IMG/VR virus record: IMGVR_UViG_3300025887_000011
Coordinates: 1-64,000 of that record
Reading direction: 5' to 3' (one strand)
DNA length: 64,000 bases
Source of the DNA: a virus
Below are positions 8,762 to 60,111 of this stretch, piece by piece. The notes under the pieces are model-generated. The model did not search any database. It worked only from the letters and a program-made list of their open reading frames with translations, and was not told where the DNA came from. A program made the translations under genes and the position numbers. Position 1 is the first letter of the stretch, and the number at the start of each line of letters is the position of its first letter.

Positions 8762-9184
8762 TTAAGCAGATTCCGATACATATAAAATATATTCAGCGCC
8801 GTCGTAATACCAACTTAAAGAACATATCCCAGTAGTAGGGACAATATTTACTATAGTCGCTATAGATCCAGAAAGAACCTTATTAGAAGTTGTCATAGAC
8901 CAAGACCCTGTTGAATCTTGCCTGATTGTAATTATACCAGCGTCACCAGCACTAGCTCCAGAGATGACTAAGTTGGTGTTTTCTGTCATTACCATTGTAG
9001 CATTATAACCAGATGAGACATCAAGGGTTGTAGTGTTTCCAGAAGAAGACAGAGTTTGTTGTGTGTAAATATTTTCTAAAGCAGAAAGTCTTGTTTCAGA
9101 ATCAGAAAAGTTTGCATTAAAAGCCGCCCTAGCATCAGAGTGGGTTGTAACGTTGGGTGTTGGCGCAAAAGGAATTTGTGACAT
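8762..9184 (-). CDS. Fibre/spike protein, MSQxPF family member 3 (N-terminal motif plus C-terminal domain only)
   Basis: Shares its N-terminus with 6498 and 7411, and its C-terminal WYYDG..YVS domain with 7411. Confidence 0.65.
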   Translation of the reverse strand: MSQIPFAPTPNVTTHSDARAAFNANFSDSETRLSALENIYTQQTLSSSGNTTTLDVSSGYNATMVMTENTNLVISGASAGDAGIITIRQDSTGSWSMTTSNKVLSGSIATIVNIVPTTGICSLSWYYDGAEYILYVSESA

Positions 9185-9293
9185 TTTATTTTAAAGTTGA
9201 TTTTTTGTTTTTCTTATTAAGTTATATTGCTAATTATTTTTACACTATAACTTTATTGTTTTTATTAAATTTTATTTATTTGTCTGTTCGTAG

Positions 9294-9635
9294 TTAAGAT
9301 AACCAAGTTTCTGGTTCGTCCCATGTTTCGCTTTCATCCCAAACTTTAGAGTTTTCCCATGCGCTTGTTTCTTCCCACAGTTCAGCCTCGACCCATAAAG
9401 AGGTGCTTAATGGTGGTTCAGGTGGTCCAGGCGCTTCAGTTACAGTCCAAACGCATTGGTTCCTCCAAATCTTTTCATTTTCCCATAGGGAACCGTCGCA
9501 TACATCTTGCTCTTTCCAAATGCAATCATCATCCCATTTTACAAGGTCCTTCCAAGAAGCGATGCAACAACCACCTAAGACGACGGCTACAAACCTTCTT
9601 CTTATAGTGTTACCAAGTAATCTTAGAACTCTCAT
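9294..9635 (-). CDS. Trp/acidic hexad-repeat protein
   Basis: W every 6 residues in two blocks, separated by a Pro linker. Confidence 0.6.
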   Translation of the reverse strand: MRVLRLLGNTIRRRFVAVVLGGCCIASWKDLVKWDDDCIWKEQDVCDGSLWENEKIWRNQCVWTVTEAPGPPEPPLSTSLWVEAELWEETSAWENSKVWDESETWDEPETWLS

Positions 9636-9638
9636 TTT

Positions 9639-9890
9639 TTAGCTAGAATAGTACACGATGGCATCCCCAGAAAGGTGGATGGTGGTCCATTCGCCAACAA
9701 TTACATCGCCAAGAACGATTGTGGCTCCAACAAAATTAGCGATGCTTCCTTCTGTGCCAGCCATTACAGCTGTATCAGCAAGTGCATGTATTGCCATGAA
9801 TTTTCCAGTTACTGTTTGATCCCCTACGATTCGCTCTCCGCCGTAGTGACCTACTTGTTTTAAAAGTGTAGATTGTGTTGATGTCGACAT
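9639..9890 (-). CDS. Small beta-rich hypothetical (probable virion) protein
   Basis: Heads the minus-strand fibre operon; GTGTA motif 9 nt upstream. Confidence 0.6.
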   Translation of the reverse strand: MSTSTQSTLLKQVGHYGGERIVGDQTVTGKFMAIHALADTAVMAGTEGSIANFVGATIVLGDVIVGEWTTIHLSGDAIVYYSS

Positions 9891-9915
9891 AAAAATACAT
9901 ACACATAAATGGTTA

Positions 9916-10170
9916 TTATGGCAAATATTTCAATGATATTCTTCCAACTTTTGAAGATTCGTCGGCCACAAAACCATCGATTATAACCTCTCCGTCGACA
10001 AAATATATATTTTTTATATCAAAACTATAATCTTTACTATTAATTTTCGTAGTAGCTATATTATTCTTTTCAGAGAAAACAAAATTAGGCATAGAAAAAA
10101 CAACGCCATCTAGATATTCTGTAGTTTTATTTACCCCTATAACTTTAAAGTTGCAGTTTTTTAATTTCAT
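9916..10170 (-). CDS. Hypothetical protein
   Basis: ORF in a packed co-oriented run. Confidence 0.55.
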   Translation of the reverse strand: MKLKNCNFKVIGVNKTTEYLDGVVFSMPNFVFSEKNNIATTKINSKDYSFDIKNIYFVDGEVIIDGFVADESSKVGRISLKYLP

Positions 10171-10666
10171 ATTCTAGGTGTTTCTTTTTTATTATTAGTT
10201 TTTCTGAGTAACCTTTTTTTATTTTTTTGATTTCAAAAGCTTTACACCATCTTTTAATAAACTTGATCATTGATGCTTTTTTATGCCTTCTTCTTACCTT
10301 TGCATTTATTTTGTCATATCCAGATAACTCCATAGCTTTTAAGCAACATATATAAAATCCCCATCTTAATTCTTTTAGCTTTTTTACTGAAGAAAAAGCT
10401 TGGGCTGGGAAAACAAAAGAAAGATCTATCGTTTTCGATTGTTCTTTTTTATCAAAAAAACAATAAATAACAGGTTTGTTTCTATCGTTTATCGAAAATA
10501 TAGCTATATCTGACGAATGAAGTTCTGCAAGGTAAGACTTTGCTTGTATTGTTTTTGATTCTAAAGAGCCGTATTCAACCTCTTCAATAGGCAAAGAAGA
10601 TATACAGAAATCAACAAATCTTTTTTTAAAAAAGATATTATTAAAATCTATTTCTTTTATCTTCAT
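10145..10666 (-). CDS. Hypothetical protein, possibly GNAT-like
   Basis: ORF with ATGA overlap; GNAT resemblance is weak. Confidence 0.5.
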   Translation of the reverse strand: MKIKEIDFNNIFFKKRFVDFCISSLPIEEVEYGSLESKTIQAKSYLAELHSSDIAIFSINDRNKPVIYCFFDKKEQSKTIDLSFVFPAQAFSSVKKLKELRWGFYICCLKAMELSGYDKINAKVRRRHKKASMIKFIKRWCKAFEIKKIKKGYSEKLIIKKKHLEYEIKKLQL

Positions 10667-10860
10667 TTCTTCCCAGCAAAGTAAAGCATTTTAGAATCAA
10701 TGGTCTCTCCAGATTCATTTAAGGTATCTTCATATACATAACCTCTTTCAGATGTAGCACAGTCCAAAGCCCACTGGTAACAGTCCTTCAGTTTAGCTGA
10801 ATAACTTTGCCTATATCTTTTTTTGTTGTCAAAAACCCTATAAATTTTATTAGTTACCAT
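10663..10860 (-). CDS. Hypothetical protein
   Basis: 65 aa, overlaps the next gene by 4 nt. Confidence 0.55.
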   Translation of the reverse strand: MVTNKIYRVFDNKKRYRQSYSAKLKDCYQWALDCATSERGYVYEDTLNESGETIDSKMLYFAGKK

Positions 10861-10975
10861 ATTATTTTGTGTTTGTATAAAGGTATATTAAGAAAATGCA
10901 TTAAAACTTCAACTTTTATTTTATATTAATAATCACTTTAAAAACGTACAAATTTTTATATTATCAATATAATAA

Positions 10976-10980
10976 GTGTA
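10976..10980 (+). promoter_or_regulatory. GTGTA motif, candidate phage (late) promoter; also at 1345-1349(-), 9241-9245(-), 9900-9904(-), 47928-47932(-), 50685-50689(-), 53691-53695(+)
   Basis: Intergenic, sense-oriented GTGTA followed by AT-rich sequence; 9-13 nt before the ATG in five of seven cases. Confidence 0.6.
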
Positions 10981-10989
10981 AAATAAAAT

Positions 10990-11952
10990 ATGGACAAAGG
11001 AAGCATGAAGGTTGCTAGAGAATTGTTGAGCTTAGAGCCAACAGCTATAGTAGAACTATACACAATATACCCAAACTTCAAAAAAAGAAGCGATGTGGTT
11101 TTTAATGTTCATAATGGTTCATTATTTGGAGGAGATATAGTATGGCAAGGTGTCAATTATAGCCCTCTACCAATGGAAATAGAAGGTTTCGAGGTGGAGG
11201 CAAACGGCAGATTAAGCAGACCGAAACTTAGAATATCAAATAAAGATCTTTATTTGTCTGATTTGCTTTCTAAATGGGATGATTTTATTAATGGAAAGGT
11301 TTACAGAAAAAGAACATTTTTAAAATTCATAGACGATGAAAACTTTGATGGAGGGAATCCTTTTGGAGAAGCCGACCCAACAGCAGAATTGACAAATCAA
11401 GTTTTTCTTGTTTCTCAAAAAACACAAGAGAACAGGGCTTATATAGAATTAGAACTTACAACACCCCTTGATTTAGACAACAGCCAAATAAATAGCAGAA
11501 GGATTATGGCTAAATTTTGCTATTGGAAATATAGAGGCAATGGTTGTGGATATGAGGGTCCACCGCTACAAAAAGGAGATGGATTACCTTTTTATAATTT
11601 TACTGGTAGTATCCAAGACCCAAGAGGTATACCAGATTTTAAATACGGAAACCCAGATGATTTGTATGACGAAAATAAAGTTTATGGAATAAATGAACTT
11701 TCATACGTAGAAAATCCAAATGTAATGGTAAGTGATCCTGAAGGATTTAAAGATCCAGAGCCAGCATTAACTTATTATGTAGCTTCTTCTGGTGATTTGA
11801 GTGGATATCATCCAGAAAAACACCCAGAATACTGGAATGCTGACGGATGCAATAAACAGCTGTCTTCTTGCAAATTAAGATTTGGGGATGAAAGAATACC
11901 ATTTGGAGGATTCCCTGGGACTCAAGGTTATCAATTTAGGGCTGGTAGTTAA
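10990..11952 (+). CDS. Lambda gpL-like minor tail protein
   Basis: GRLSRPKLRISN, RKRTFLKFID..NF, CYWKYRG.GCGY, C.K.LSSCKLRF, PFGGFPG; the four Fe-S cysteines of gpL are present. Confidence 0.93.
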   Translation: MDKGSMKVARELLSLEPTAIVELYTIYPNFKKRSDVVFNVHNGSLFGGDIVWQGVNYSPLPMEIEGFEVEANGRLSRPKLRISNKDLYLSDLLSKWDDFINGKVYRKRTFLKFIDDENFDGGNPFGEADPTAELTNQVFLVSQKTQENRAYIELELTTPLDLDNSQINSRRIMAKFCYWKYRGNGCGYEGPPLQKGDGLPFYNFTGSIQDPRGIPDFKYGNPDDLYDENKVYGINELSYVENPNVMVSDPEGFKDPEPALTYYVASSGDLSGYHPEKHPEYWNADGCNKQLSSCKLRFGDERIPFGGFPGTQGYQFRAGS

Positions 11953-11960
11953 TAAAAATA

Positions 11961-12374
11961 ATGAAAAACAACAAAAAAGAAATTTTTGAGTCTCAAGATT
12001 TAGAAAAGTGCCTAGATAAAATAAAGGATTGGTCTACAAAAAGAAAAGCTGTAGAAATCTGCGGTTTTTTAGGTTTTAAAAATGATAAATATATATTGTG
12101 GCATTGTCAAAATATAGCAGAAGACCCTACTAAATACTTCGCAATAGACCCTTTAGATTTTCTAGTTTTTAAGGAAGAAAATAAAATACTTTGCGTTTTT
12201 CATAGTCATATATTTGGCAATGAAAACCCATCTGAATTTGATGTTACTATGTCTGAAAACTGTTGCGTTCCATTTATGATTTATTCATTGAATACAAAAA
12301 AATTCAAAATATTCAAACCAAAGACTAACGAAGCAGACGGTTTTATATTATCTAAAGTAGAGAAAGCTATATGA
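11961..12374 (+). CDS. JAB/MPN metalloprotease (gpK-like, no NlpC/P60 domain)
   Basis: EICGF and intact JAMM motif HSH-x7-S-x2-D (FHSHIFGNENPSEFD); lies between gpL and gpI. Confidence 0.9.
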   Translation: MKNNKKEIFESQDLEKCLDKIKDWSTKRKAVEICGFLGFKNDKYILWHCQNIAEDPTKYFAIDPLDFLVFKEENKILCVFHSHIFGNENPSEFDVTMSENCCVPFMIYSLNTKKFKIFKPKTNEADGFILSKVEKAI

Positions 12375-13789
12375 CTAAAGTTGTTATACATGGAAATCTT
12401 GCTAATGTTTTTGGAAGGGATTTTAAATGCAAAGTGTCTTCTATAAAAGAGGTATTTAATTTTCTTGAAGCAAATAGACCTGGTTTTTATGCAAAACTAC
12501 AAAAACTGTCAAAACAGGGAATGCATTATGCTATCATAGCAGACGGAGAAAAACTCTCTAAGTTAAATCAGATAGAGAATATAAAAAAAATAAAAAGAAT
12601 AGATATTGTTCCTGCTGTAGTTGGAAGCGGACCAATAGCAGTTGGAATAGGAGCAACAATTGCAACCATAGGTTTATCTACAGCTTTAGCAGCTGGCACA
12701 ATAAGTATGACTACATTTATTATAGCTTCTGTAGTAGTTGCTGTTGTCAGCATGGCATTACAAATGATGCTTGCTCCCAAACCCCCAACGCCTCCAGCAA
12801 TAGAAAGCACAACTAGAGCTTTGGAGCAATCGTTCACTTTTGCGAATAAAGATAATGTAGCCGCTCAAGGGTCTCAAATACCATTCGGATATGGAAGACT
12901 TCTTTGTCCAACTTTTGTAATTGAATCTTCAACGAAAAATTACCCGCAAAACATCAGAGCTAACCAAATATTTTCAAACGAAATTAAAGACAACTACCTA
13001 GGTGGCAACGTCGATAGAGAAAAATCAAGTATTGTTTTCCCAACAGAAAAGCCTGACAATGTAGAAGTTTGGGGGCAAGATTCCAGTTTTGATTTTGAAC
13101 ATGAATCATTTTGGGACCCTCTTCAATGTATAGGCGCTCGGAGTTTGCAAATCGAAGGAATAGGAACTCATCTTGTTGAGTTTCACGACGATCCTAATCA
13201 TAGATTAAAGGTTTATCGATGGAACCAATCGTCTACTCTTAATTACACAAACTACTTTCAACAATCGCTTGGGGCGGGATTCTGGTCGGGAGTGTTTTAC
13301 ATGAATGGAGACGGAGGGATTCAACAACGTGTTCTAACTCCCAACGGAATGAACTCTGGATTCTATCAGTATAATACAATTAGTTTCGAAAATAACACCC
13401 CAGAAGTCCAAAGAGACAATCCTCATTGTCAACCTCCTTATGTATCTCCACAATGGGGCAAGAGCGTAAGTTTCGACGTCAAAAACTCCATACGAATAGT
13501 TGTGACAGATTATGATCAAAAACCAGGTTACAATCCTTCAACAGACCCAAGTCCTCCTGGAATCATACGTGCAGAATTTTCTATTAATTTCACAACTACA
13601 AGAACAGTTATATTTGGCAAAACGGGAGAAATTCCACAAAACCTGGACAGAACAAAGATTTTTTATTGGCAGGTTTCAAACTCTGGTAAACCGTCTTCTT
13701 ATCCAAACTATGGGCCTGGCCCATTAACAAGATTTGGAGCAACAAACGGGCAAAGTCCTTCAATAGATAACGGTAAGCTTATAATCTAA
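12371..13789 (+). CDS. gpI-like tail assembly protein A with variable C-terminal extension
   Basis: Ubl-like N-domain (VVIHGNL..FG...IDIVPAVVGSG), hydrophobic helices, N...QG..IP.GYGRL core, then about 280 extra aa. Confidence 0.85.
   Translation: MTKVVIHGNLANVFGRDFKCKVSSIKEVFNFLEANRPGFYAKLQKLSKQGMHYAIIADGEKLSKLNQIENIKKIKRIDIVPAVVGSGPIAVGIGATIATIGLSTALAAGTISMTTFIIASVVVAVVSMALQMMLAPKPPTPPAIESTTRALEQSFTFANKDNVAAQGSQIPFGYGRLLCPTFVIESSTKNYPQNIRANQIFSNEIKDNYLGGNVDREKSSIVFPTEKPDNVEVWGQDSSFDFEHESFWDPLQCIGARSLQIEGIGTHLVEFHDDPNHRLKVYRWNQSSTLNYTNYFQQSLGAGFWSGVFYMNGDGGIQQRVLTPNGMNSGFYQYNTISFENNTPEVQRDNPHCQPPYVSPQWGKSVSFDVKNSIRIVVTDYDQKPGYNPSTDPSPPGIIRAEFSINFTTTRTVIFGKTGEIPQNLDRTKIFYWQVSNSGKPSSYPNYGPGPLTRFGATNGQSPSIDNGKLII
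12935..13010 (+). repeat. 76-bp repeat at the core/extension junction of the gpI paralogues (copies 15678-15753 and about 14290-14356)
   Basis: A vs C: 6 mismatches in 76 nt; encodes KN(Y/F)PQNxRANQIFSNxIKD. Confidence 0.9.
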
Positions 13790-15090
13790 TGACAAAAATA
13801 TTTCTACACGGAATTCTTGGAGTGAAGTTTAAAAAAACTTTTGTTGCTAAAATAGATAAAATTGAAGATGTCTTTGGTTTTTTAAAAGCCAACAATCCAA
13901 AGTTTGAAAAAGAAATTTGCGACATGCATTTAAATGGCGTTAATTACTGCTTGATAGTAGATGGAAAAAAAATAAAAACAAAGGAAGAACTTAGTTTAAA
14001 GAAAAGACCCAAAGAAGTTCACCTGGTCCCTATCTTAGTCGGCCATGGACCATATTCAGCTATAGCTGTTATTGTTGCAAAAGTTATCTTCGCCGTAGTT
14101 GCTTTGTATCTTATTGTAATTTTGCTAACCTCTAAACCACCAAAACCGCCAAGCCTGGAACAATCGACAAGAGCTTTAGAAGAGTCTTACGGCATTAACA
14201 ATAAACCCAATATAACAGCACAAGGAACACAGGTTCCAGTAGGTTATGGAAGATTACTTATTGGAACTCACGTTATAGAATATACTGAAAAAAACTACCC
14301 ACAAAACGTCAGGGCTAACCAAATATTTTCGAATGGAATTAAAGACGGCTACTTAGTTAGTAGCGAACCTAATATTAATACAATACTATGGCCAACAGAA
14401 ACCCCTCCAGAGTACGACGGCTGGGGCGACAATCAGGTTCTAGAATACGAGGGCGAGACATATCACGACCCAGACAGAAATCATGGAGGCACAGGACCAT
14501 TAATATTTCGATGTTGGGAAGGTATTTCTTTTCTTACATTCGGTTACTACTCAATTACAACCCATGTCCCAGAAGGCGGGCTAAACAAGCAAAGATTTGC
14601 TCTTTGGAGTATGCCTATTGATAATTACAACACGGAAAGGACTTCAAGACCTGAAATCTGCACTTCAGGAAGTTCAAGTATTAATGGTGTCCAAAGATGG
14701 TATTTCGGCAGTCTCACACAAATGACCGACAGTAATACTAATGAATTCTACCTAACCAAATACCCGACAAGCAGGCCAGATCCAGAAACAGGAGATCATA
14801 TACTAGGTCGTTTTACTATAACGATCTCTAATGTTATCAAGATTACATACTTTGATAATGGATATGAACTCAGCGGGAACTGCTCAACTGTCTATTACCC
14901 TCCGTGCAACAGGGGTGTATATCTAAATTACCTTACCGTTCCAGAAACAGACAACAACGGTCGATGCCAAATACTCACTACTAAGATTCCTAATATTAAT
15001 TGTGGAATAGATGAAGCTTTTAAATTTAGGGCAGGAGGCTCGCTAATTCAAGGGGCTGAAATTCCTTACGGTGAAGTACCACAAGGTTAA
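13789..15090 (+). CDS. gpI-like tail assembly protein B with variable C-terminal extension
   Basis: IFLHGILG..F...VHLVPILVGHG, one hydrophobic helix, QGTQVPVGYGRL, Cys-containing extension. Confidence 0.85.
   Translation: MTKIFLHGILGVKFKKTFVAKIDKIEDVFGFLKANNPKFEKEICDMHLNGVNYCLIVDGKKIKTKEELSLKKRPKEVHLVPILVGHGPYSAIAVIVAKVIFAVVALYLIVILLTSKPPKPPSLEQSTRALEESYGINNKPNITAQGTQVPVGYGRLLIGTHVIEYTEKNYPQNVRANQIFSNGIKDGYLVSSEPNINTILWPTETPPEYDGWGDNQVLEYEGETYHDPDRNHGGTGPLIFRCWEGISFLTFGYYSITTHVPEGGLNKQRFALWSMPIDNYNTERTSRPEICTSGSSSINGVQRWYFGSLTQMTDSNTNEFYLTKYPTSRPDPETGDHILGRFTITISNVIKITYFDNGYELSGNCSTVYYPPCNRGVYLNYLTVPETDNNGRCQILTTKIPNINCGIDEAFKFRAGGSLIQGAEIPYGEVPQG
14467..14517 (+). repeat. 51-bp repeat shared by gpI-B and gpI-C (second copy 15858-15908)
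   Basis: 33 identical nt (gacccagacagaaatcatggaggcacaggacca); 2 mismatches over 51 nt. Confidence 0.9.
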
Positions 15091-15113
15091 CAGCAAAATT
15101 TAAAGAATACAGT

Positions 15114-16613
15114 ATGACAGAAGTAGTATTACATGGAAACTTAGGTGTTAAGTTCGGTAAAAATTTTAAATGTAAAATTTCTTCTGTAAGAGAGGTGTTT
15201 GATTTTATAGATGCAAATAGACCTGGATTTTCTGAATGTCTTAAAAAACTATCTCAGCAAGGCATGCATTATGCCCTTATATTAGATGGTAAAAAGCTTT
15301 CTGACATGAAAGAAATAAATAATAAAAAGAATATAAAAAAAATAGACATTGTTCCAGCTGTCTTAGGAAAAGGACCAATAGCAGTTGGGATAGGGTCGAC
15401 AATTGCAACCATAGCCTTATCATCTGCGTTGGCAGCGGGAACTATAAGTCTTACTACTTTTATAGTAGCATCTGTTGTTATAGCTGTCGTGAGTATGGCT
15501 TTACAAATGATGCTTGCTCCCAAACCTCCAGAAGCACCGTCAATAGAAGCTACAACTAGAGCTTTACAGCAGTCATTTTACTTTGCAAATAAAGCAAACA
15601 TAGCAGAACAAGGAAATACTATTCCAGTTGGTTATGGCAGGTTATTAGTTAGCAGTTATGTGATTGAAGCTTGTAACAAAAACTTCCCGCAAAACACCAG
15701 AGCTAACCAAATATTTTCAAACGGAATTAAAGACAACTACTTAGGTGGTAACGACAAAATAAATATAGATATTTTATTCCCAGATGAAGAGCCTCCTCCA
15801 GATTATCGTGGATGGGGCAGTTCGGTGAGTTTAAGTGGAAACTCTGATTTATATTTTGACCCAGACAGAAATCATGGAGGCACAGGACCAGTAATATTTC
15901 AATGTTGGCAATCTCCTTTTAAGAGTGGAACGTCAAGTTTCGCCTATAGCGTTTCACATCCATATGGTTTTAGGGGTCTTATCTGGGCTCTGTTCAATAG
16001 AGGATCGTCACCAAGACTTAGTTACGCTAAAATAAACCAGTATGGAGGCAGCCCAACCTCTAATTGGGGAGCAAAAGGAATGGCCCAGGTACCCTCTGAC
16101 GGTGTTCCGTTTGAAGGGGTATCAGAAGCAGTTATGCAGGACATTGCTGGTAATGTTCAATGGGGCAATCCATGGGGAGACAGCCAAATACAACAAGGCC
16201 TTGTCGATGTCGCTCAATATAACGACGGTGGGTATCAAGACTACGGGAAAGAAATAAAAATAGCTAATGGATCTTATTCGTACCAACTTTATCTTGTTAA
16301 TTACTTTAACACTTCTTTCAACCCTATAACGAAAGAAGGTGTTATTGCAGAGTCTGTTATAAACGTGAGTCACAATGTAAACGTTATAATGTTCGACAAT
16401 GGATGGCTTCCTAGGTCCGAACCACCCCCAAATGAATGTTCGACTGTTTACTACCCTCCATGTAACAGAATACAGGTTTACGCAAACCAAGGCAATGGAG
16501 GCAACGAATGCACGGTCGGATCTGGAAATATAAAATCTGGACCAATATTTAGAATGGGCGTCATAAATGCAGGAGGTTTAGGAGCTCAAGGAGGAGAAAA
16601 GTCAACTTATTAA
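15114..16613 (+). CDS. gpI-like tail assembly protein C with variable C-terminal extension
   Basis: N-half closely matches A (IDIVPAVLGKGPIAVGIG...ALQMMLAPKPP); extension framework matches B. Confidence 0.85.
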   Translation: MTEVVLHGNLGVKFGKNFKCKISSVREVFDFIDANRPGFSECLKKLSQQGMHYALILDGKKLSDMKEINNKKNIKKIDIVPAVLGKGPIAVGIGSTIATIALSSALAAGTISLTTFIVASVVIAVVSMALQMMLAPKPPEAPSIEATTRALQQSFYFANKANIAEQGNTIPVGYGRLLVSSYVIEACNKNFPQNTRANQIFSNGIKDNYLGGNDKINIDILFPDEEPPPDYRGWGSSVSLSGNSDLYFDPDRNHGGTGPVIFQCWQSPFKSGTSSFAYSVSHPYGFRGLIWALFNRGSSPRLSYAKINQYGGSPTSNWGAKGMAQVPSDGVPFEGVSEAVMQDIAGNVQWGNPWGDSQIQQGLVDVAQYNDGGYQDYGKEIKIANGSYSYQLYLVNYFNTSFNPITKEGVIAESVINVSHNVNVIMFDNGWLPRSEPPPNECSTVYYPPCNRIQVYANQGNGGNECTVGSGNIKSGPIFRMGVINAGGLGAQGGEKSTY

Positions 16614-16628
16614 AAATAAATTTAAAAA

Positions 16629-19600
16629 ATGAAACATTATGAATTAAAAACAGAAGTAGCTGGAGCAGGAGGAAGAAAAGGCAAAAAGCCAAAACCAGCA
16701 ACACTAAAGCCGCCTAAACTTGGCGACTATAAAGTGGCTTCATCTTATACTTATGCAGAAATTTTAGATTTGGTCTCTGATGGCCCTATAGAAGGTCTTG
16801 TTAATAAAAATGGTTATACACTTCCATATAACGCTTTGCTTCAAGGCGTTTATCTTAATAATGTTCCAGTAGAAGAGACAAACGAAAATTTCTTAACAGA
16901 AGCAGGTATAAAAACACCACTTTTGGACCAGTCAAAATTCTCTAGCGGGATTAAAGAAATGTTTGACGATATTCAATTTTCGACAAGGGATGAGATAGAA
17001 GATAAAGGTTTACTTTACCCAGATACAGATAATTTTGCTGACGCTAAAGAAGTATATTACTCTTTCAATACTGGGCTTTATAAGGGCAATCAATTTATAA
17101 ATAAAGTAGAAGATTTAAGTTCTTTAATAAATTTCCCAGCAGACATAAGAAATCCAGAAAAATACCCAGTTGTTACATATGGAGATACTTACGTTTCTGG
17201 AAAATCCGATAACACTCCAATTAGAGGCTCTTTTTTCTCAGACAATAAGTATGAAGCTAATTTTTCAATGGGAATAAAACATATAAATGATGTTTTCCAA
17301 GAAGGAACGAACGCAAAAAAGGGTTTGGATGAATTCTTAGAATCAGTTTATTCAGACAATTTATATATCGGGGAGTACGCAAAAGGAAAACTAAGGTCTT
17401 TCGGTTATACAGAAGAAGATATAGACAATGGAGTAGGAGAACAAAACATAAAAAACCTTTTTGCCAATATATTTTCAAAGCAAATACCAGATTGGTATTT
17501 AAATAGCAATGACTTTATAACCCCTTATGTTTGTATTACTGTAGATGGGGTAATGGAAGGTTATGAATTTTATAATCATGTAAACTATTTTCTAGAAAAA
17601 GATGAAAGTGGTTCTGTTACATCAAAATTAAATTATTATGCTGATTTTGATCTTGATTCAGAATCTAGGTCTGAAGGTCTAAACTTGTCTAGTAATACTC
17701 TATCAATGTTTATTCCGAATTTAGCCGAAAACGGAACTTGGGATGGAAAAGTTCAAGGTTTTTATTTCTTTCTATTAGATGCTGAGTCTGTTGTTTACGA
17801 AAATATAGAAAAAGTTTCTGGTCCTTCTGATTTTGACGCTTTGACTATGGGGATAGATCAGTCTGAACTTTCGTTTTTGAGGAGTTTAAAAGGATTTATA
17901 CTTTCAGACAACAACCCATTGAACAATGAAAAAGCTCCTAAAAAAATAATACCATACTACGAACTATACTCTTTTGAGAGAAAGCTTGTAGATACTGGAG
18001 GATGTGTATTCACAACCGAACTTAACAGGGTATCTTTAGATAAAGGATATTCAGACCAAGATTCCATAGAGTCTATATCTGAAGATAAATATCAAAGCGA
18101 TGTTATAAGAAAAGGCGTTCAAGTTAAGTGGAGTTTTAAATATCAAACTTATCGAGAACGCTTTATGGAAATACCTATAGATATTTGGTGTAAAAAAGTT
18201 TCTGGCATCACTACAGATATACATTATAAAGCAAGGGTATTTTTAGATGGAGAATTAGTCTTAACAGAAGAAAAGACAAATTGGAACACTAATGGAACCG
18301 ATAACCCAGAGCTTTCTGTTAGGATTCCTCCTTCTCAGTTTTTGCAAACAATAACTCTCGATATTGTTGCCTACTCGAGTTTAGAAACCCCAACTTCTTG
18401 CCCTTTTTCATTACCTGTAATACCTGAAGTTAGAGCTAGAGTATTTAGACCTGATATATTTCGTGAGCTTGAAGATGATATTGAAGCTCAAGATGTTGGT
18501 GCGGTAAAATATAACTGGTCAAATGTTTTGGCTGAGTTTAGGCCAGGTTCAAGAAACCAAGCGCCATTAACATATTTTAAAGATGTTAATGTCGATTATA
18601 ATTATCAATACACGCTTCTTGGTCCTTTTAACCCAGATAAAAATGACGGGACGACTGTGCAAAGGATAGTGCAAGGAGACGGAAAACTTAAAAAGCCCGA
18701 CAAGTATCCAATATTAAATATGGCATCAACATTCGTACCTACAATGGACGAAGAATACCTAAGTGCGATACAAGAAGGAAGCTCTGACAAAAGATGGACT
18801 GGAGCTTATAAAACAATTAGTTCTTCTGGCGGTGGTTTAAAAATACGAATAAAGAATCCTGATGACTTCGCTGGTTGGGATGTTAACGGACAAGATTATT
18901 CTGAAGAAGCACAACCTTTAACGCACATTATAGAAAACCCAAATGTAACATCTGTATGGTTTACTTTAAATATAGATGCTTTAAAAGATACTGTACATAG
19001 ATCGATAGGAGACCCAGCTGAACCAGATGTAGATGCTGGATCATCTTTACCAGCAAACGTAAATATAAGAGTAGAGACAGGATTAATAGACTACAACGGA
19101 AAAACAACTACGACTTATAGTAAACTATTTCAGATAACAGCGCTAGTAGAATCTCCTTCTTTGTTGGATATTGGAAATTCAGACAACCAAGGATTACAAT
19201 CTTATTTCGACTATATAAATGTGTATAATGATATTAATGAAGTCGATCAAAATAATAACCCTATCGATAGAGGAGGGATGTTTTCCCCTTTCTTGTTGGA
19301 CGATCCTAAATCTCAAACTGGAGATCCAGATTTAAATACCAAAAACCAAGAACATACATCTACAAAAAGATTTATAAGAGTCACTAAATTGACAACAGAA
19401 ACCAGCTCTACCTTAATTTTCAAAGAGGTAGGTGTTGTAAAATTTTCAGAAATCATACCAGGGCAATGTCAATATCCGTATTCAGCTTACTGTGGCATCA
19501 AAATCGATTCTCGAGTTTTTGCAGACATACCATCAAGATCATACGAAGCTAAATTAAAAAAGGTAAAAATACCATCTAATTACTTCCCTACTTTTAGAAA

Positions 19601-21323
19601 TGGAAAAGACAAAAGGTATTATGACAAAGCTAATTCTTACTCTGTGGCAAGTGGTGAGGATAGACATATATACAAAGGAGACTGGGACGGCACATTTAAA
19701 TTTGCATGGACAGACAATCCTGCTTGGATACTGTACGATGTAATACTTAATGATCGTTATGGACTAGGTGGATTTGTAGAAGCGTCATCTGTAAACAAAT
19801 GGGATTTATATAAAATAGGAAGATTTTGTGATGCTGTAGACGAACAAGGTTATTTTGTTGGTTTAGATGACGGAAGAGGAGGTTTAGAACCTAGATTTTC
19901 TTGTAATATAATGTTCTCTGAAGAAACTAAAGTATTTGATGCTATAAACACAATAGCTACTATATTTAGAGGTGTTGTCTATTATAATAATTCTACTATA
20001 GAATTCTCTGATGATAGACCAAAAGAACCTATAGCTCTTTTTACTAACTCTAATGTAAAAGAAGGAATTTTCACTTACTCTAATTACCAAAGAGACGAGC
20101 AAATAAATACAATAGAAGTTGTTTATATTGATAGGTACGATGGATATAAAACTAAACTAGAATTAGTAGAAAACCAAGCAGATATAGCAGAAAGAGGGAT
20201 ATTTAAAAAATCAATTAATGCATTCGGAATTACTTCAAAAGCTATGGCCAGAAGGGCTGGAGATCATTTTCTTTACCAAACCACAAAAGAAAACCAATCA
20301 GTGGCTTTTAACTGCGGTTTAGAAACTCTATTATGCAAACCTGGTGATTTAATAGTTGTTGATGATGAACTGAAATCATTTAAATCAAATTTTGGAAAAG
20401 TGTTAGATGTCAATAACAATGAAAAATCAGTAAGAATATCGCAAAGCTTTCTACCAAATGATTACGATGCGCAAATTACTCTTTATAAACCATCTAAATT
20501 AAACGATGTTGATTCAATAGATGATAGTATATCTTTTTATAGATCTAGATTAGATACCTTTACTATACTAGGAAATAACACTGATTTATTGGCAGGTAGC
20601 GGATGGAACAACATGATTGGAGAGTGGCAATTTAGCGGCTACACAAGTGGATACCAAGAAGTAAAAGACGCTGTAGGAAATTATATATCCCCTCTTCAAG
20701 AAGAGTATGCATTATATAAAAATATAGAACCTACTTCTTCTGGTTATTCTCCTACTCTCTGGTTTAATACAGAAGCTCAAGGTTGGGTGTTTTCTACTGG
20801 AAATTATTCAAATTCAGGAGCTTTAGAAAATAATAATTTATTTATATTAGAACCTAATTTATTCAGCTTTTTGGACCTTCAGTTGTTCGATCCAAACGAC
20901 TTGACAAAAACCCGTATTAAAAAATACGAGCCGATTAATCAAGATAAAAGAGGAGCTACTATAGGAAACTTTACTGGTGACTTTATTTATAATGACCCAA
21001 GCGTCGATCTTGTTTATTACAACGGTAATCAATCTACAGAATCCACAATAGGAAGCAGCGTCCAAATATTTTCCGTACCTATAACTGGATGGGGATCATC
21101 TGAGTATGGGGACGATGTCTTTGTAGATAAAGACGATATAAACTCATCTTTACTTGAATTCGTTCCTATTGGAACAACTTATAGATTTACTATTAAAGAC
21201 GAAAAAGATAGTATATATAAAGTAACCTCTATAAAAGAAGAAGGAAGAAGTGAGTTTTCAATTATAGCGACAAAATTTGATACTGGCAAGTACGACCTTA
21301 TAGATAAGGGGGGTGCTTTCTAA
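16629..21323 (+). CDS. Lambda gpJ-like central tail-tip protein
   Basis: DLVSDGPIEGL, YPYSAY.G, WDGTFK.AWTDNPAWILYD, EPRFSCN, FTNSNV.EG.F.Y, PGDLI.V.D. Confidence 0.93.
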   Translation: MKHYELKTEVAGAGGRKGKKPKPATLKPPKLGDYKVASSYTYAEILDLVSDGPIEGLVNKNGYTLPYNALLQGVYLNNVPVEETNENFLTEAGIKTPLLDQSKFSSGIKEMFDDIQFSTRDEIEDKGLLYPDTDNFADAKEVYYSFNTGLYKGNQFINKVEDLSSLINFPADIRNPEKYPVVTYGDTYVSGKSDNTPIRGSFFSDNKYEANFSMGIKHINDVFQEGTNAKKGLDEFLESVYSDNLYIGEYAKGKLRSFGYTEEDIDNGVGEQNIKNLFANIFSKQIPDWYLNSNDFITPYVCITVDGVMEGYEFYNHVNYFLEKDESGSVTSKLNYYADFDLDSESRSEGLNLSSNTLSMFIPNLAENGTWDGKVQGFYFFLLDAESVVYENIEKVSGPSDFDALTMGIDQSELSFLRSLKGFILSDNNPLNNEKAPKKIIPYYELYSFERKLVDTGGCVFTTELNRVSLDKGYSDQDSIESISEDKYQSDVIRKGVQVKWSFKYQTYRERFMEIPIDIWCKKVSGITTDIHYKARVFLDGELVLTEEKTNWNTNGTDNPELSVRIPPSQFLQTITLDIVAYSSLETPTSCPFSLPVIPEVRARVFRPDIFRELEDDIEAQDVGAVKYNWSNVLAEFRPGSRNQAPLTYFKDVNVDYNYQYTLLGPFNPDKNDGTTVQRIVQGDGKLKKPDKYPILNMASTFVPTMDEEYLSAIQEGSSDKRWTGAYKTISSSGGGLKIRIKNPDDFAGWDVNGQDYSEEAQPLTHIIENPNVTSVWFTLNIDALKDTVHRSIGDPAEPDVDAGSSLPANVNIRVETGLIDYNGKTTTTYSKLFQITALVESPSLLDIGNSDNQGLQSYFDYINVYNDINEVDQNNNPIDRGGMFSPFLLDDPKSQTGDPDLNTKNQEHTSTKRFIRVTKLTTETSSTLIFKEVGVVKFSEIIPGQCQYPYSAYCGIKIDSRVFADIPSRSYEAKLKKVKIPSNYFPTFRNGKDKRYYDKANSYSVASGEDRHIYKGDWDGTFKFAWTDNPAWILYDVILNDRYGLGGFVEASSVNKWDLYKIGRFCDAVDEQGYFVGLDDGRGGLEPRFSCNIMFSEETKVFDAINTIATIFRGVVYYNNSTIEFSDDRPKEPIALFTNSNVKEGIFTYSNYQRDEQINTIEVVYIDRYDGYKTKLELVENQADIAERGIFKKSINAFGITSKAMARRAGDHFLYQTTKENQSVAFNCGLETLLCKPGDLIVVDDELKSFKSNFGKVLDVNNNEKSVRISQSFLPNDYDAQITLYKPSKLNDVDSIDDSISFYRSRLDTFTILGNNTDLLAGSGWNNMIGEWQFSGYTSGYQEVKDAVGNYISPLQEEYALYKNIEPTSSGYSPTLWFNTEAQGWVFSTGNYSNSGALENNNLFILEPNLFSFLDLQLFDPNDLTKTRIKKYEPINQDKRGATIGNFTGDFIYNDPSVDLVYYNGNQSTESTIGSSVQIFSVPITGWGSSEYGDDVFVDKDDINSSLLEFVPIGTTYRFTIKDEKDSIYKVTSIKEEGRSEFSIIATKFDTGKYDLIDKGGAF

Positions 21324-21327
21324 AAAG

Positions 21328-21489
21328 CTATTTACCATTCATGGTTTCTTCAAGAGCAAGCAAGAAATTGTTTTTAAGATTTCTGGGAACTTTCTTGTAT
21401 TGCTCTTTAGCTCTTCTATAAACCCTTCTGCTGATAGCGTCATTTGGGTTTATGATTTTCCTTAATTTTTTAGCAATTTTTTTATTCAT
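21328..21489 (-). CDS. Small basic hypothetical protein (53 aa, MNKKIAKKLRK...)
   Basis: Translated by hand; ATGA overlap with the upstream GNAT gene; below the ORF-track cutoff. Confidence 0.6.
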   Translation of the reverse strand: MNKKIAKKLRKIINPNDAISRRVYRRAKEQYKKVPRNLKNNFLLALEETMNGK

Positions 21490-21944
21490 AATTTAGCAAC
21501 GTATGTAGTTGAATCTTTCAAGAAACCCAGCTTTTTATAGAAGTTTTCTATTTTTTCTGAATTTGGATTGTCTTCTAAAACAGAAAGTGTTATGATTTTA
21601 AAACCACTTTCCCTAGCGAACTTTATAGCTTCTTTAAATAATTTAAATCCAATTTTGGGATTTTTTGAAACCCAAACATATTCAGAAAACATATCAACAC
21701 CAAACTTTACGTTTTTATCGTTAAAAAAAGCAATGCAAGCGTCGTATTTCTCACCTGTTTTATTAGCCCAAATAAAAAGATCCCAAGCTAACAATTGTTT
21801 ATTCGAATAGTTCAGTTTAATACTCTCTGTATCATGAGACATTCCTAAAGCGTGAGCTTCGTAAGAATCTTCTTTAGGTATAATGTCTCGAAGATCATCA
21901 ACCATTAGGCAAAACTCATCTGGATTTGTAATTCTTTTTATCAT
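21486..21944 (-). CDS. GNAT-family acetyltransferase
   Basis: IGFKLFKEAIKFARESG...NFYKKLGF. Confidence 0.7.
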   Translation of the reverse strand: MIKRITNPDEFCLMVDDLRDIIPKEDSYEAHALGMSHDTESIKLNYSNKQLLAWDLFIWANKTGEKYDACIAFFNDKNVKFGVDMFSEYVWVSKNPKIGFKLFKEAIKFARESGFKIITLSVLEDNPNSEKIENFYKKLGFLKDSTTYVAKL

Positions 21945-22774
21945 TTAGAAATAATACCTATGAGTTTTCTTGCTTCTTTTGCAGGTATGTTATCAAAATC
22001 TTTCCAGTTCTTAACGTCTTCATTGATATACTTCTCAGACTTCCATAAGTCTCTTAGAAGCTCCTTGAAACCATCAAACGATTCCACACTATGCTTTTCT
22101 CTTAAGGTCTTCTCAAGCAATCCAGAGGGAGTTATAGGGGCGAAGTTTTCGCCAGACGATTTAGATGAGGTCTTTGTGTTTTCAGACTTATCAATTTCAT
22201 CAGCACCTACAATATTAATGTTTAAAAAGTTTCGTACACAACGAACAAAAGCTCTATTACACGCAATGGTTTCTAGGAATTTTTCGCAAAAGGCGTCTGT
22301 GTTTTCTAAAGATGCGTTGGCATAATCTTCGTAAGAAACGATTTTGTTGGAAGATTCATAATTGCCAATCCATTCAATATCACAACGAGCCGTAACATAA
22401 CCATCTTCTACGTTTCTCGCATCATAAGCAACAGCATGAAAACCTCTAAGTTTAGCCAAATCTTTAATTCCTCCAAGCATAATCAGTAGTTGATTGTCTC
22501 TGAGTCCTTCTGTAGATGTAGGGGTTTGTTGTCCACGCATTTCAAACCAACCCTTATTTGGATAAAGAAATTCTGGTTTAATCATAGCCCTCCAATTAAC
22601 AGAGCCATCTTCGTTAAAAATATAATCAACGCATTCAAGAAGGCCATGTCCATCTCTCTTGTAAAGATCTGGGCCATATAATTTTTTAGCCGCTTGTTTC
22701 TTGGCTGTTTGTTTTTTTACAGCTTTTTTTGCAGATTTTTTAACTGCTTTATTTTTGTCCTCTTTTTTGTTCAT
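21941..22774 (-). CDS. Rad52/Sak-like single-strand annealing protein (putative)
   Basis: GGIKDLAKLRG...ANAS.EN...ETIACNRAFVRCVRNFLNI.IVGADEI resembles the A(E/C)xRAxxR helix of Rad52-fold proteins; Lys/Ala-rich N-tail. Confidence 0.5.
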   Translation of the reverse strand: MNKKEDKNKAVKKSAKKAVKKQTAKKQAAKKLYGPDLYKRDGHGLLECVDYIFNEDGSVNWRAMIKPEFLYPNKGWFEMRGQQTPTSTEGLRDNQLLIMLGGIKDLAKLRGFHAVAYDARNVEDGYVTARCDIEWIGNYESSNKIVSYEDYANASLENTDAFCEKFLETIACNRAFVRCVRNFLNINIVGADEIDKSENTKTSSKSSGENFAPITPSGLLEKTLREKHSVESFDGFKELLRDLWKSEKYINEDVKNWKDFDNIPAKEARKLIGIISK

Positions 22775-23936: not shown

Positions 23937-23940
23937 TTTT

Positions 23941-60109: not shown

Positions 60110-60111
60110 TT

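What the first reader, a model, noticed from the sequence alone, without database searches (positions are those of the whole stretch)
11961..16613. Three ubiquitin-like gpI paralogues with variable cargo domains beside a stand-alone JAB protease
Seen: an intact JAMM protease is followed by three tandem gpI genes. Each reads Ubl domain - VPxxxGxG - hydrophobic helices - gpI core - NxPQNxRANQIFSN - an extension of about 250-300 aa that differs between copies. Known: lambdoid phages usually have one gpI of about 200 aa, with a beta-grasp N-domain proposed to be cut by the JAB domain of gpK, and the tail tip is three-fold symmetric. Inference: this is a polymorphic tail-tip system. The Ubl tag routes each protein to the tip, JAB cleaves at GxG to expose a membrane-type helix, and three different C-terminal domains are carried, either as a heterotrimer or as alternatives. 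They could be receptor-binding domains or cargo delivered to the host envelope.
Basis: partly seen in the sequence, partly recalled or inferred. Interest (0 to 1): 0.88.

Follow-up and report, generated by a model that had tools for sequence, protein, structure and literature searches.

The report
Three extended tail-plug (gpI) paralogues
An uncultured aquatic phage carries three tandem copies of the lambda-type tail-tip plug protein gpI; each has the usual removable ubiquitin-like front end and an extra, fast-evolving, swappable 250-300-residue end domain of unknown fold that probably sits on the outside of the tail tip.

Summary
Window 10990-21323 (+) is one tail-tip operon: gpL, a 137-aa JAB-only peptidase with a complete JAMM motif, three gpI genes (472, 433 and 499 aa), then a 1564-aa gpJ.

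- **gpI layout.** Each gpI has a MoaD/SAMP-type beta-grasp domain, then VPxxxGxG, a hydrophobic span, the plug core that aligns to lambda gpI (PDB 8IYK) and a conserved KN(Y/F)PQNxRANQIFSN junction. An orphan C-terminal extension (24-33% identical between copies) begins where lambda gpI ends.
- **Not an assembly artefact.** Contigs from four other runs bridge every gene junction.
- **Copy number varies.** Relatives carry one copy (L003/L082), two (L083) or three (window). The other 79 different related viral loci have one copy each, mostly 152-241 aa.
- **Parts are shuffled.** Front parts and extensions recombine among strains (A-a, A-b, A-c, B-a, B-b, C-a, C-c).
- **JAB and Ubl.** A complex model puts the GxG tail in the JAB active site. 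Removal of the N-domain is already reported for lambda and F-pyocin, so that step is known biology.
- **Open questions.** What the extension does and how the three copies share the trimeric plug. External display as a polymorphic host-surface-binding domain is favoured; delivered cargo is disfavoured.

Verdict: a new variant of a known kind.

The parts
10990..11952 (+). gpL-type tail hub protein (320 aa), first gene of the tip operon
   Evidence: PF05100 E 1.5e-46; phrog_18 E 1.2e-63. GTGTAAA lies at 10976-10982, 8 nt before the ATG, but this motif is not enriched overall.
11961..12374 (+). JAB/MPN-only peptidase (137 aa; gpK without NlpC/P60). JAMM residues: E32 (12054-12056) and H81-x-H83...S91..D94 (12201-12242). 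Its stop overlaps the gpI-A start (ATGA).
   Evidence: PF14464 32.4 bits; phrog_30 E 1.4e-22. Motif read and invariant in 27 homologues. Overlap seen.
12371..13789 (+). gpI-A (472 aa). Ubl 12371-12631 with VPAVVGSGP at 12608-12634; hydrophobic span 12632-12778; plug core and junction 12779-12979; extension type a 12980-13786.
   Evidence: phrog_32 E 5e-29; translation; boundaries; profile alignment to lambda gpI 8IYK.
13789..15090 (+). gpI-B (433 aa). Ubl 13789-14049; short hydrophobic span (28 aa) 14050-14133; core and junction 14134-14334; extension type b 14335-15087. Its start overlaps the gpI-A stop (TAATG).
   Evidence: phrog_32 E 5.5e-19; translation; boundaries; long branch in the tree of the N-parts; overlap seen.
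15114..16613 (+). gpI-C (499 aa). Ubl 15114-15374; hydrophobic span 15375-15521; core and junction 15522-15722; extension type c 15723-16610.
   Evidence: phrog_32 E 1.8e-29; translation. Residues 1-86 of the model match MoaD/SAMP1/CysO at Z 8.9-8.3. N-part is 71% identical to A; extension is 33% identical to B.
16629..21323 (+). gpJ-type central tail-tip/fibre protein (1564 aa), last gene of the operon
   Evidence: PF13550 E 5.9e-18; phrog_31 E 1.6e-104. Residues 916-1302 align to lambda gpJ 179-543.

Best explanation
This is the tail-tip (hub) operon of a large, uncultured, low-GC aquatic siphovirus-like phage.

All three gpI genes encode complete tail-tip plug proteins of the lambda gpI / F-pyocin PA0640 type. 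Each is made with an N-terminal MoaD-like ubiquitin-like domain. The neighbouring JAB peptidase removes that domain at the conserved VPxxxGxG tail once the protein has joined the nascent tip. What remains is the hydrophobic helices and the plug, which hold the tape-measure C-terminus in the lumen. The C-terminal strands thread outward between the gpJ hub domains.

Unlike ordinary gpI, each paralogue continues past the point where lambda gpI ends into a 250-300-residue extension rich in Gly, Asn, Ser, Pro, Tyr and Trp, with conserved Cys in most types. It is probably a beta-sandwich. It is most likely displayed on the outside of the tip as an accessory host-surface-binding or decorating domain.

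The three genes are translationally coupled or close-packed and are probably co-expressed. Because the plug is a trimer, virions probably carry mixed or alternative sets of extensions. The conserved junction acts as a recombination point at which extensions are swapped between paralogues and strains. This makes the extension part of the phage's host-range cassette.

Shown here: gene anatomy, homology to gpI, JAB, gpL and gpJ, the beta-grasp model, copy-number variation, module shuffling, and independent contig support.

Inferred: cleavage in this phage, external location of the extension, its binding function, and mixed occupancy of the plug.
For: - Family assignments.
- Alignment to lambda: the profile of 14 extended gpIs hits lambda gpI 8iyk_I at E 2.4e-11, aligning residues 1-185 to lambda 14-204 of 223. 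The extension therefore begins where lambda gpI ends.
- Beta-grasp: residues 1-86 match MoaD-related 1v8c at Z 8.9 (rmsd 3.1, 79 aligned), SAMP1 at 8.4 and CysO at 8.4. The top 13 rows are all MoaD/SAMP/Urm1/Ubl proteins.
- GxG motif: [VILTA]PxxxGxG is present in essentially all 61 distinct homologues.
- JAB and Ubl(1-100) model: score 0.69 against a best control of 0.34. That mark was reached by 58 of 80 solved complexes and 2 of 110 mismatched pairs. The runs agree in at least 74% of contacts and the partner's pLDDT is at least 73. Ubl residues 80-87 touch JAB H81, S91 and D94.
- Literature: lambda gpI is a trimeric plug with H1/H2 helices, and its C-terminal strands pass through gaps in the gpJ HDs and stay there in the open state (PMC10721106, PMC11101478). 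The PA0640 N-domain is removed before the tip joins the tube (bioRxiv 10.64898/2026.02.24.707460). gpK is reported to cleave the gpI Ubl (PMC12908700).
- Copy number 1, 2 and 3 in syntenic relatives.
- Seven N-part x extension combinations among strains.
- Extensions diverge faster than N-parts in orthologous pairs: 56-100% against mostly 92-100% identity per 25-residue block.
- The whole tip module is swapped between genomes whose flanking proteins are 98-99% identical.
- Other lineages carry unrelated 650-800-aa extensions at the same point, too large for the tip lumen.
- Every gene junction is bridged by contigs of at least two other runs.
- Start/stop overlaps and 15-23-nt spacers between the genes.
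Against: - No confident structure for the extension: pLDDT 25-50 in the full-length model and 45 alone.
- No family, fold or sequence relative outside the clade. A binding role therefore rests on context, composition and evolutionary behaviour only.
- No expression or virion data.
- The external location is inferred from descriptions of the lambda structure, not computed from coordinates.
Some could be assembly chimeras, although the longest identical DNA run at the A/C junction is only about 27 nt.
- The JAB-Ubl pass may reflect likeness to solved JAMM-ubiquitin-like complexes, and the job differed from the tool's calibration (own alignments, Zn riding along).
- gpI-B has only one hydrophobic helix and a fast-evolving N-part, so it may not be equivalent to A and C.
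Confidence: 0.5

Rival explanations
1. The extensions are structural rather than host-binding. They brace or decorate the unusually large hub of this clade, for example by docking onto the roughly 740 extra N-terminal residues of gpJ. The paralogues differ because they co-evolve with the swapped gpJ/gpL cassette.
For: gpJ has about 740 residues ahead of the region that aligns to lambda gpJ 179-543. The whole gpL-gpJ module co-varies between near-identical genomes. The invariant residues of the extension cluster in its first 50 or so residues (P20, P25, W31, D46, P47), as expected for an anchoring segment.
Against: A purely structural role does not explain why extensions are shuffled between N-parts among close strains. 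It also does not explain why they evolve faster than the rest of the protein, or why copy number runs from 1 to 3 with similar gpJ sizes of 1544-1615 aa.
Confidence: 0.25
2. The extensions are cargo. They are stored in the tip and released into the host envelope together with the hydrophobic helices, in the manner of a polymorphic-effector arrangement: a conserved delivery module with a variable C-terminal domain.
For: The architecture is a conserved N-part, a conserved junction and a variable C-terminal module, and the modules are shuffled. The gpI helices are proposed to enter the outer membrane (PMC11101478, PMC12617516).
Against: In lambda it is the N-terminal helices that drop out, while residues from 167 onward remain bound to gpJ in the open state (PMC11101478). 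The extensions are mutually homologous, have no invariant Cys, His, Ser or Glu, and match no enzyme or toxin family. No immunity-like small gene follows any copy. Three copies of about 30 kDa, or 70-90 kDa in other lineages, are unlikely to fit in the tip lumen.
Confidence: 0.12
3. Only one paralogue is used. The others are redundant recent duplicates or a reservoir of spare cassettes for recombination, with no role in the virion.
For: A single copy suffices in L003/L082. A near-identical IMG/VR contig has a 1-bp deletion that splits gpI-C. Hybrids suggest frequent recombination among copies.
Against: All three window genes are intact, keep every motif that is invariant across the family, and are packed as in a translationally coupled operon. 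B-type and A/C-type lineages each persist in several strains at 90-99% identity in the N-part, which implies purifying selection.
Confidence: 0.1
4. The tandem array is an assembly artefact: alleles of different strains were concatenated.
For: The IMG/VR contig of the same phage breaks inside gpI-B. Logan contigs are fragmented across the region.
Against: The A-B, B-C and C-J junctions are each bridged by contigs in at least two of four runs from four studies, and no deletion joints were seen. The copies are only 24-71% identical by part, far too divergent to be collapsed or expanded repeats. An independent relative (L083) has a two-gene array.
Confidence: 0.03

Closest known systems
Phage lambda gpI (tail tip assembly protein I / TAPI; tip plug; PDB 8IYK, 8XCG, 9E7M)
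   Same: N-terminal MoaD/ThiS-like beta-grasp ending in conserved Gly; Gly/Ala-rich hydrophobic helices; a plug core with the QG..P.GYG motif; a gene placed between the JAB gene and J. Profile match E 2.4e-11 over lambda residues 14-204.
   Different: Lambda has one copy of 223 aa that ends about 19 residues after the aligned core. Here there are three tandem copies of 433-499 aa, each with a 251-296-aa orphan C-terminal domain. Copy B has one hydrophobic helix instead of two. Pfam gave no family for any of the three at E <= 0.01.
F-type pyocin tip plug PA0640 (PDB 25vf chain 9) with maturation factor PA0639
   Same: A trimeric plug homologue (profile E 4.1e-10). Its N-terminal domain is reported to be proteolytically removed before the tip joins the tube (bioRxiv 10.64898/2026.02.24.707460). 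This is the model for the N-part here.
   Different: PA0640 is 200 aa, single-copy and has no C-terminal extension. The protease responsible was not established in that work.
Lambda gpK (TAPK: JAB/MPN + NlpC/P60)
   Same: The JAB domain has a complete JAMM motif, is encoded directly upstream of gpI, and is predicted to hold the Ubl tail in its active site.
   Different: There is no NlpC/P60 domain (137 aa in all). This JAB-only form is the rule in the related aquatic viral contigs: 74 ORFs from 83 loci.
Mosaic receptor-binding modules of phage tail fibres and tips (conserved anchoring N-part, exchangeable distal domain)
   Same: A conserved junction, combinatorial exchange of distal domains between paralogues and strains, faster evolution of the distal part, and a whole tip cassette swapped between near-identical genomes.
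   Different: The carrier is the internal plug protein gpI, which is not known to bear receptor-binding domains. No binding activity or known RBD fold was shown.
Extended gpI genes of 852-1025 aa in other IMG/VR contigs (L073, L075, L077, L078, L080, L081)
   Same: A gpI N-part followed by a large C-terminal addition at the same point; a JAB-sized ORF abuts the gpI start in L081 (L075 has none), and a gpJ follows two genes downstream where the contig reaches that far (L075, L080, L081).
   Different: They are single-copy. Their extensions are unrelated in sequence to those here and give only weak PA14 or E1_FCCH signals.

Membership tests
gpI / TAPI (lambda tail tip assembly protein I; phrog_32) | N-terminal ThiS/MoaD-like beta-grasp domain | tested here: met
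   gpI-C model residues 1-86 (pLDDT about 60-77): 1v8c Z 8.9, 2l52 8.4, 4n6e 8.4, 4hro 8.3. The top 13 rows are all MoaD/SAMP/Urm1/Ubl. A and B were not modelled; they align without gaps over residues 1-88.
gpI / TAPI (lambda tail tip assembly protein I; phrog_32) | Conserved glycine(s) at the C-terminal end of the beta-grasp, followed by a Gly-rich hydrophobic linker | tested here: met
   VPxxxGxGP at residues 80-88 in all three. The motif is present in essentially all 61 distinct homologues. Hydrophobic span of 49, 28 and 49 residues.
gpI / TAPI (lambda tail tip assembly protein I; phrog_32) | Sequence homology of the plug core to solved gpI | tested here: met
   phrog_32 E 5e-29, 5.5e-19 and 1.8e-29. 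Profile against PDB: 8iyk_I E 2.4e-11; 25vf_9 4.1e-10; 9l9p_A 8.8e-10.
gpI / TAPI (lambda tail tip assembly protein I; phrog_32) | A match to a curated Pfam family | tested here: inconclusive
   hmmscan against Pfam-A returned no family for any of the three at E <= 0.01. PHROG and PDB profile matches are strong, so this reflects divergence from the Pfam seed, not absence of homology.
gpI / TAPI (lambda tail tip assembly protein I; phrog_32) | Gene lies between a JAB-bearing K gene and J | tested here: met
   Order is gpL, JAB, gpI x3, gpJ.
gpI / TAPI (lambda tail tip assembly protein I; phrog_32) | Usual form: a single copy of about 200 aa that ends shortly after the core | tested here: not met
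   Three copies of 433-499 aa. Leaving out L001/L002 (two cuts of the window's own phage contig, 99.8% identical), the other 79 viral loci are all single-copy and 73 of them are 152-241 aa. This is why it is filed as a variant.
gpI / TAPI (lambda tail tip assembly protein I; phrog_32) | Trimeric plug in the tip lumen that binds the tape-measure C-terminus | not testable with these tools
   Known for lambda and F-pyocin from cryo-EM (PMC10721106; bioRxiv 10.64898/2026.02.24.707460). No virion data exist for this phage.
JAB/MPN (JAMM) metallopeptidase | E ... HxH x7 S xx D zinc-site motif | tested here: met
   E32, H81, H83, S91 and D94 read and invariant in 27 homologues. PF14464 at 32.4 bits against a cut-off of 25.
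JAB/MPN (JAMM) metallopeptidase | Cleaves after the Ubl C-terminal glycine | tested here: inconclusive
   The complex model supports binding with the tail in the active site: 0.69 against a best control of 0.34, a mark reached by 58 of 80 solved complexes and 2 of 110 mismatched pairs. Catalysis cannot be computed. It is reported for lambda gpK/gpI in a meeting report (PMC12908700).
gpK / TAPK (JAB + NlpC/P60) | C-terminal NlpC/P60 papain-like peptidase domain | tested here: not met
   The protein is 137 aa and holds only Prok-JAB over residues 15-109. The same JAB-only form appears in 74 ORFs from 83 related loci.

The most novel reading that the evidence does not exclude
The trimeric tail-tip plug is filled combinatorially by up to three paralogues, so a single burst yields virions with up to ten different sets of outward-facing C-terminal domains, including an asymmetric A-B-C tip. 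This would make the plug protein gpI a previously unrecognised carrier of polymorphic, recombination-shuffled host-recognition domains: a bet-hedging device built into the one position of the tail that also gates DNA release.
Probability: 0.25. Interest if true: 0.8.

Novelty: new variant of a known kind. Interest (0 to 1): 0.55.

Why it matters
gpI has only recently been recognised as the plug that locks the tape measure in siphophage and F-tailocin tips, and as a substrate of a ubiquitin-like/JAB maturation step. This clade shows three further things:

- The C-terminus of the plug is a permissive site for large added domains.
- Those domains behave like host-range modules: they evolve fast, are shuffled at a conserved junction, and sit in a swapped tip cassette.
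- A position with three-fold symmetry can be served by one, two or three paralogous genes.

If the extensions are exposed and bind host surfaces, receptor sensing would be physically linked to the gate for DNA release. It would also give a natural system for asking how symmetric tail tips tolerate mixed subunits. For phage engineering it would offer a new site for grafting binding domains.

Tried and rejected
- **Cultured phages.** tblastn of gpI-C against 50,697 phage records found no match at E <= 1e-5, so no cultured relative is available.
- **Context of hybrids.** The genomic context of the hybrid proteins P0006-P0020, and of P0014-P0016 (contigs up to 127 kb), could not be examined.
- **Metagenome scan.** It returned only one locus, L082, which duplicates L003.
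- **Structure of the extension.** The full-length model had pLDDT 37.6. The extension alone, with 17 rows, had pLDDT 45 and pTM 0.44.
- **Fold searches on that model.** Only generic Ig-like/beta-sandwich rows at Z <= 6.7, below the tool's stated noise level, and nothing in BFVD (TM <= 0.33). The ESM Atlas model is also poor, with no usable feature hits. None of this shows that the fold is new.
- **Extension profile against 1.84 billion representatives.** Eight hits: six from the extended-gpI clade, and two large cadherin-domain proteins that match only a 40-residue DPD-type stretch. This is too weak to call a cadherin-like domain.
- **Pfam on the six extensions.** No family even at E <= 5.
- **Diversity-generating retroelement.** No reverse transcriptase in the 91.8-kb record, which is 74% complete.
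- **Promoter motif.** GTGTAWW is not enriched in the window (41 found, 35.6 expected), although one copy sits 8 nt before gpL.
- **Deletion or hybrid forms in reads.** No joints were seen in four runs of contigs. Contigs drop rare variants, so this is not evidence of absence.
- **Orthology of B and the second L083 copy.** Unresolved in the tree; both sit on long branches.


Full report
**What is there**

The window belongs to a 91.8-kb viral record that CheckV rates 74% complete. It is low in GC. It encodes a DNA polymerase, ribonucleotide reductase, a helicase and a tape-measure protein at 61937-64000 on the minus strand.

On the plus strand, flanked on both sides by minus-strand genes, lies a compact six-gene block:

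| Gene | Coordinates | Size | Main evidence |
|---|---|---|---|
| gpL | 10990-11952 | 320 aa | PF05100, E 1.5e-46 |
| JAB-only protein | 11961-12374 | 137 aa | PF14464, 32.4 bits; phrog_30 |
| gpI-A | 12371-13789 | 472 aa | phrog_32 over residues 1 to ~190, E 5e-29 |
| gpI-B | 13789-15090 | 433 aa | phrog_32, E 5.5e-19 |
| gpI-C | 15114-16613 | 499 aa | phrog_32, E 1.8e-29 |
| gpJ | 16629-21323 | 1564 aa | PF13550; phrog_31, E 1.6e-104 |

The JAB stop overlaps the gpI-A start (ATGA), and the gpI-A stop overlaps the gpI-B start (TAATG). The B-C and C-J spacers are 23 and 15 nt. The block therefore reads as one operon. The own record holds exactly three phrog_32 matches.

**Anatomy of the three proteins**

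- **Residues 1-88.** They align without gaps and end in VPAVVGSGP, VPILVGHGP or VPAVLGKGP.
- **N-domain fold.** In the AlphaFold model of gpI-C this is the only confidently folded part (pLDDT about 60-77). It superposes on a MoaD-related protein (1v8c: Z 8.9, rmsd 3.1, 79 residues), SAMP1 (8.4), CysO (8.4), Urm1 and MoaD. The top 13 rows are all of this kind, and the model's residues 83-86 align to the C-terminal ends of those chains.
- **Hydrophobic span.** It is 49 residues in A and C, enough for two helices like lambda H1/H2. It is only 28 residues in B.
- **Plug core.** A profile of 14 extended gpIs matches lambda gpI (8iyk chain I) at E 2.4e-11 over lambda residues 14-204 of 223. It also matches the F2-pyocin plug (25vf chain 9, 4.1e-10).
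- **Junction and extension.** The conserved KN(Y/F)PQNxRANQIFSN junction takes the place of lambda's last 19 or so residues. The 269-, 251- and 296-residue extensions begin exactly where lambda gpI stops.

**The extension**

- **Similarity between copies.** The three extensions are 24-33% identical to one another.
- **Conserved residues.** Across 17 sequences only P20, P25, W31, D46, P47 and G279 are invariant, with P245 nearly so. A frequent YPxCN...C pattern lies near the end.
- **Composition.** They are rich in Gly, Asn, Ser, Pro, Tyr and Trp.
- **Homology searches.** No Pfam family even at E <= 5. A profile search of 1.84 billion representatives found only this clade, plus a 40-residue DPD-type stretch in two cadherin-domain giants.
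- **Models.** They stayed poor: pLDDT 45 and pTM 0.44 for the extension alone. The weak beta-sandwich core gave only generic Ig-like matches at noise level (Z <= 6.7) and nothing in BFVD.

The fold is therefore unknown. There is no invariant Cys, His, Ser or Glu that would suggest an enzyme.

**The JAB protein**

The JAB protein has E32 and H81-S-H83-x7-S91-xx-D94, and all of these are invariant in 27 homologues. It lacks the NlpC/P60 half of lambda gpK. That is normal for this group: 74 ORFs from the 83 related loci are JAB-only, of 100-199 aa, and each one listed ends at the gpI start.

I modelled JAB with gpI-C residues 1-100 and zinc:

- The score was 0.69, against a best control of 0.34.
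- The tool reports that this mark was reached by 58 of 80 solved complexes and by 2 of 110 mismatched pairs.
- The runs agree in at least 74% of contacts, and the partner's pLDDT is at least 73.
- Ubl residues 80-87 touch JAB H81, S91 and D94.

Two caveats apply. My own alignments and a riding zinc differ from the tool's calibration. JAMM-ubiquitin-like complexes have also been solved, so the pass may be partly memory.

The literature agrees with the reading:

- Iyer et al. predicted JAB cleavage at the terminal glycine (PMC1779556).
- The N-domain of the F-pyocin plug PA0640 is present in stalled tips and absent from mature particles (bioRxiv 10.64898/2026.02.24.707460).
- A 2025 meeting report states that lambda gpK cleaves the Ubl from gpI only after gpI has engaged the tip (PMC12908700).

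The reported role is an assembly checkpoint, not a routing tag.

**Is the triplication real?**

Logan contigs from four other runs (four studies) were laid on 10990-17600.

| Junction | Bridged by |
|---|---|
| A-B | X8 record 18, X12 record 3, X13 record 12 |
| B-C | X8 record 20, X9 record 29, X13 record 13 |
| C-J | X8 record 24, X9 record 31 |

No deletion joints appeared. The copies are far too divergent to be a collapsed or expanded repeat. The artefact reading is rejected.

**Relatives**

- **Survey.** L001 and L002 are two cuts of one IMG/VR contig that is 99.8% identical to the window and breaks off inside gpI-B. Each of the other 79 viral loci has one gpI. Seventy-three are 152-241 aa, one is 559 aa (L003) and five are 852-1025 aa.
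- **Long forms elsewhere.** They are not gpI-gpJ fusions, because a separate J follows. Their extensions are unrelated to those here, with weak PA14 or E1_FCCH signals. The gpI C-terminus has therefore acquired large domains more than once.
- **The extended-gpI clade.** It is monophyletic (99/99), and copy number within it varies.
- **One copy.** L003/L082 have a single 559-aa copy.
- **Two copies.** L083 has 491 and 482 aa, the second with a short hydrophobic span like B.
- **Three copies.** The window. A and C are sister lineages (91/89); B and L083-2 sit on long branches.
- **Cassette swap.** Against L003 the flanking proteins are 98-99% identical, while gpL, JAB, gpI and gpJ are only 48-59% identical. 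The whole tip operon has been exchanged between otherwise near-identical genomes, which is the usual signature of a host-range cassette.

**Module shuffling**

I split 20 proteins at the junction. Every N-part type occurs with more than one extension type:

| Combination | Proteins |
|---|---|
| A-a | window A, P0012 |
| A-b | P0009, P0010 |
| A-c | P0006 |
| B-b | window B, P0019 |
| B-a | P0020 |
| C-c | window C, P0005, P0007 |
| C-a | P0008 |

In orthologous pairs the N-part is mostly 92-100% identical per 25-residue block, while extension blocks range from 56% to 100%. The longest identical DNA run between A and C at the junction is about 27 nt. Chimeric assembly is therefore unlikely but cannot be excluded for the short source contigs. 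No reverse transcriptase is present, so a diversity-generating retroelement is not the source of variation.

**Where the extension sits and what it does (inference)**

In lambda, gpI residues from about 101 or 135 to 223 form the plug. [quoted passage not shown] From residue 167 on they stay bound in the open state, while the helices drop towards the membrane (PMC10721106, PMC11101478).

Three arguments follow from this:

- A domain appended to that C-terminus should end up at or outside the hub wall and should stay with the particle. This argues against delivered cargo.
- Three 30-kDa domains, or 70-90 kDa in the other lineages, are unlikely to fit in the narrowing lumen.
- The composition, the shuffling, the fast evolution and the location in a swapped tip cassette all point to an exposed, host-facing role.

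A bracing role for the enlarged hub is the main alternative.

How three paralogues share a trimeric site is open. A single copy suffices in L003 and two occur in L083, so an obligate A-B-C heterotrimer is not general. Mixed or alternative occupancy is the simplest reading. B's single helix and long branch hint at a specialised role.

**Verdict**

The N-terminal Ubl/JAB logic and the plug are known. The tandem multiplicity and the polymorphic, swappable C-terminal domain on a plug protein are, as far as the searched literature and databases show, undescribed. I rate it a new variant of a known kind, with interest 0.55.

Noticed in passing
window 16629-16750; also the J-type gene after gpI in about 55 related loci (for example L003:11684, L083:5929): The protein encoded right after gpI almost always starts MKH(L/F/V)xKKxxxxG(A/G)G(G/K), followed by KPKPxPAxLxPPxLG. 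In the window it reads MKHYELKTEVAGAGGRKGKKPKPATLKPP. Only its conservation was checked.
   Followed up: partly
window 16629-19370 (gpJ residues 1 to about 915): gpJ has about 740 more N-terminal residues than lambda gpJ: residues 916-1302 align to lambda 179-543. In lineages with 852-1025-aa gpIs, pieces of this region (residues 10-82, 627-673, 746-877) are a separate protein of about 300 aa, followed by an ORF of about 185 aa and then J.
   Followed up: partly
window 8762-25797 compared with L003: Flanking proteins are 98-99% identical (140-, 113- and 277-aa ORFs), but gpL, JAB, gpI and gpJ are only 48-59% identical. The whole tail-tip operon has been swapped between near-identical genomes.
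   Followed up: yes
window 15624; L002:1412: IMG/VR contig IMGVR_UViG_3300007540_005245 is 99.8% identical to the window but lacks one C in the IPVGYG codons. This splits gpI-C into 177- and 317-aa ORFs. The contig also ends inside gpI-B at window 14213. It could be a sequencing error or a natural null allele.
   Followed up: partly
L083 (JABXKB010000040.1, 20.9 kb): This contig is filed as a 'Promethearchaeota archaeon' MAG contig, yet it is syntenic with this phage: gpL 75%, gpJ 62% and flanking genes 47-75% identical. It is most likely a viral contig binned with an archaeal MAG.
   Followed up: partly
window 10990-21323 versus 54275-64000: The tip operon (gpL to gpJ, plus strand) is about 40 kb away from, and opposite in strand to, the tape-measure and minor-tail genes (61937-64000, 61143-61937 and 60112-61143, minus strand). 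Replication and glycosylation genes lie between them.
   Followed up: no
window 11950-11961, 15091-15113, 16614-16628: There are no Shine-Dalgarno-like purine runs before the JAB, gpI-C or gpJ starts; the leaders are A/T-rich. Together with the low GC and the BspA-type LRR genes, this fits a Bacteroidota-type host, but the host was not tested.
   Followed up: no
window 12696 and 13966: Contigs in runs X8 and X12 follow the window up to 12696, inside the gpI-A hydrophobic span, and then continue with unlike sequence. Another contig joins at 13966 (table 7). These may be co-occurring variants with a different gpI arrangement.
   Followed up: no
L073, L075, L077, L078, L080, L081: Other viral contigs carry single gpI genes of 852-1025 aa. 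Their extensions are unrelated to those here and give weak PA14 (E 5e-4) or E1_FCCH (E 2e-8) signals.
   Followed up: partly
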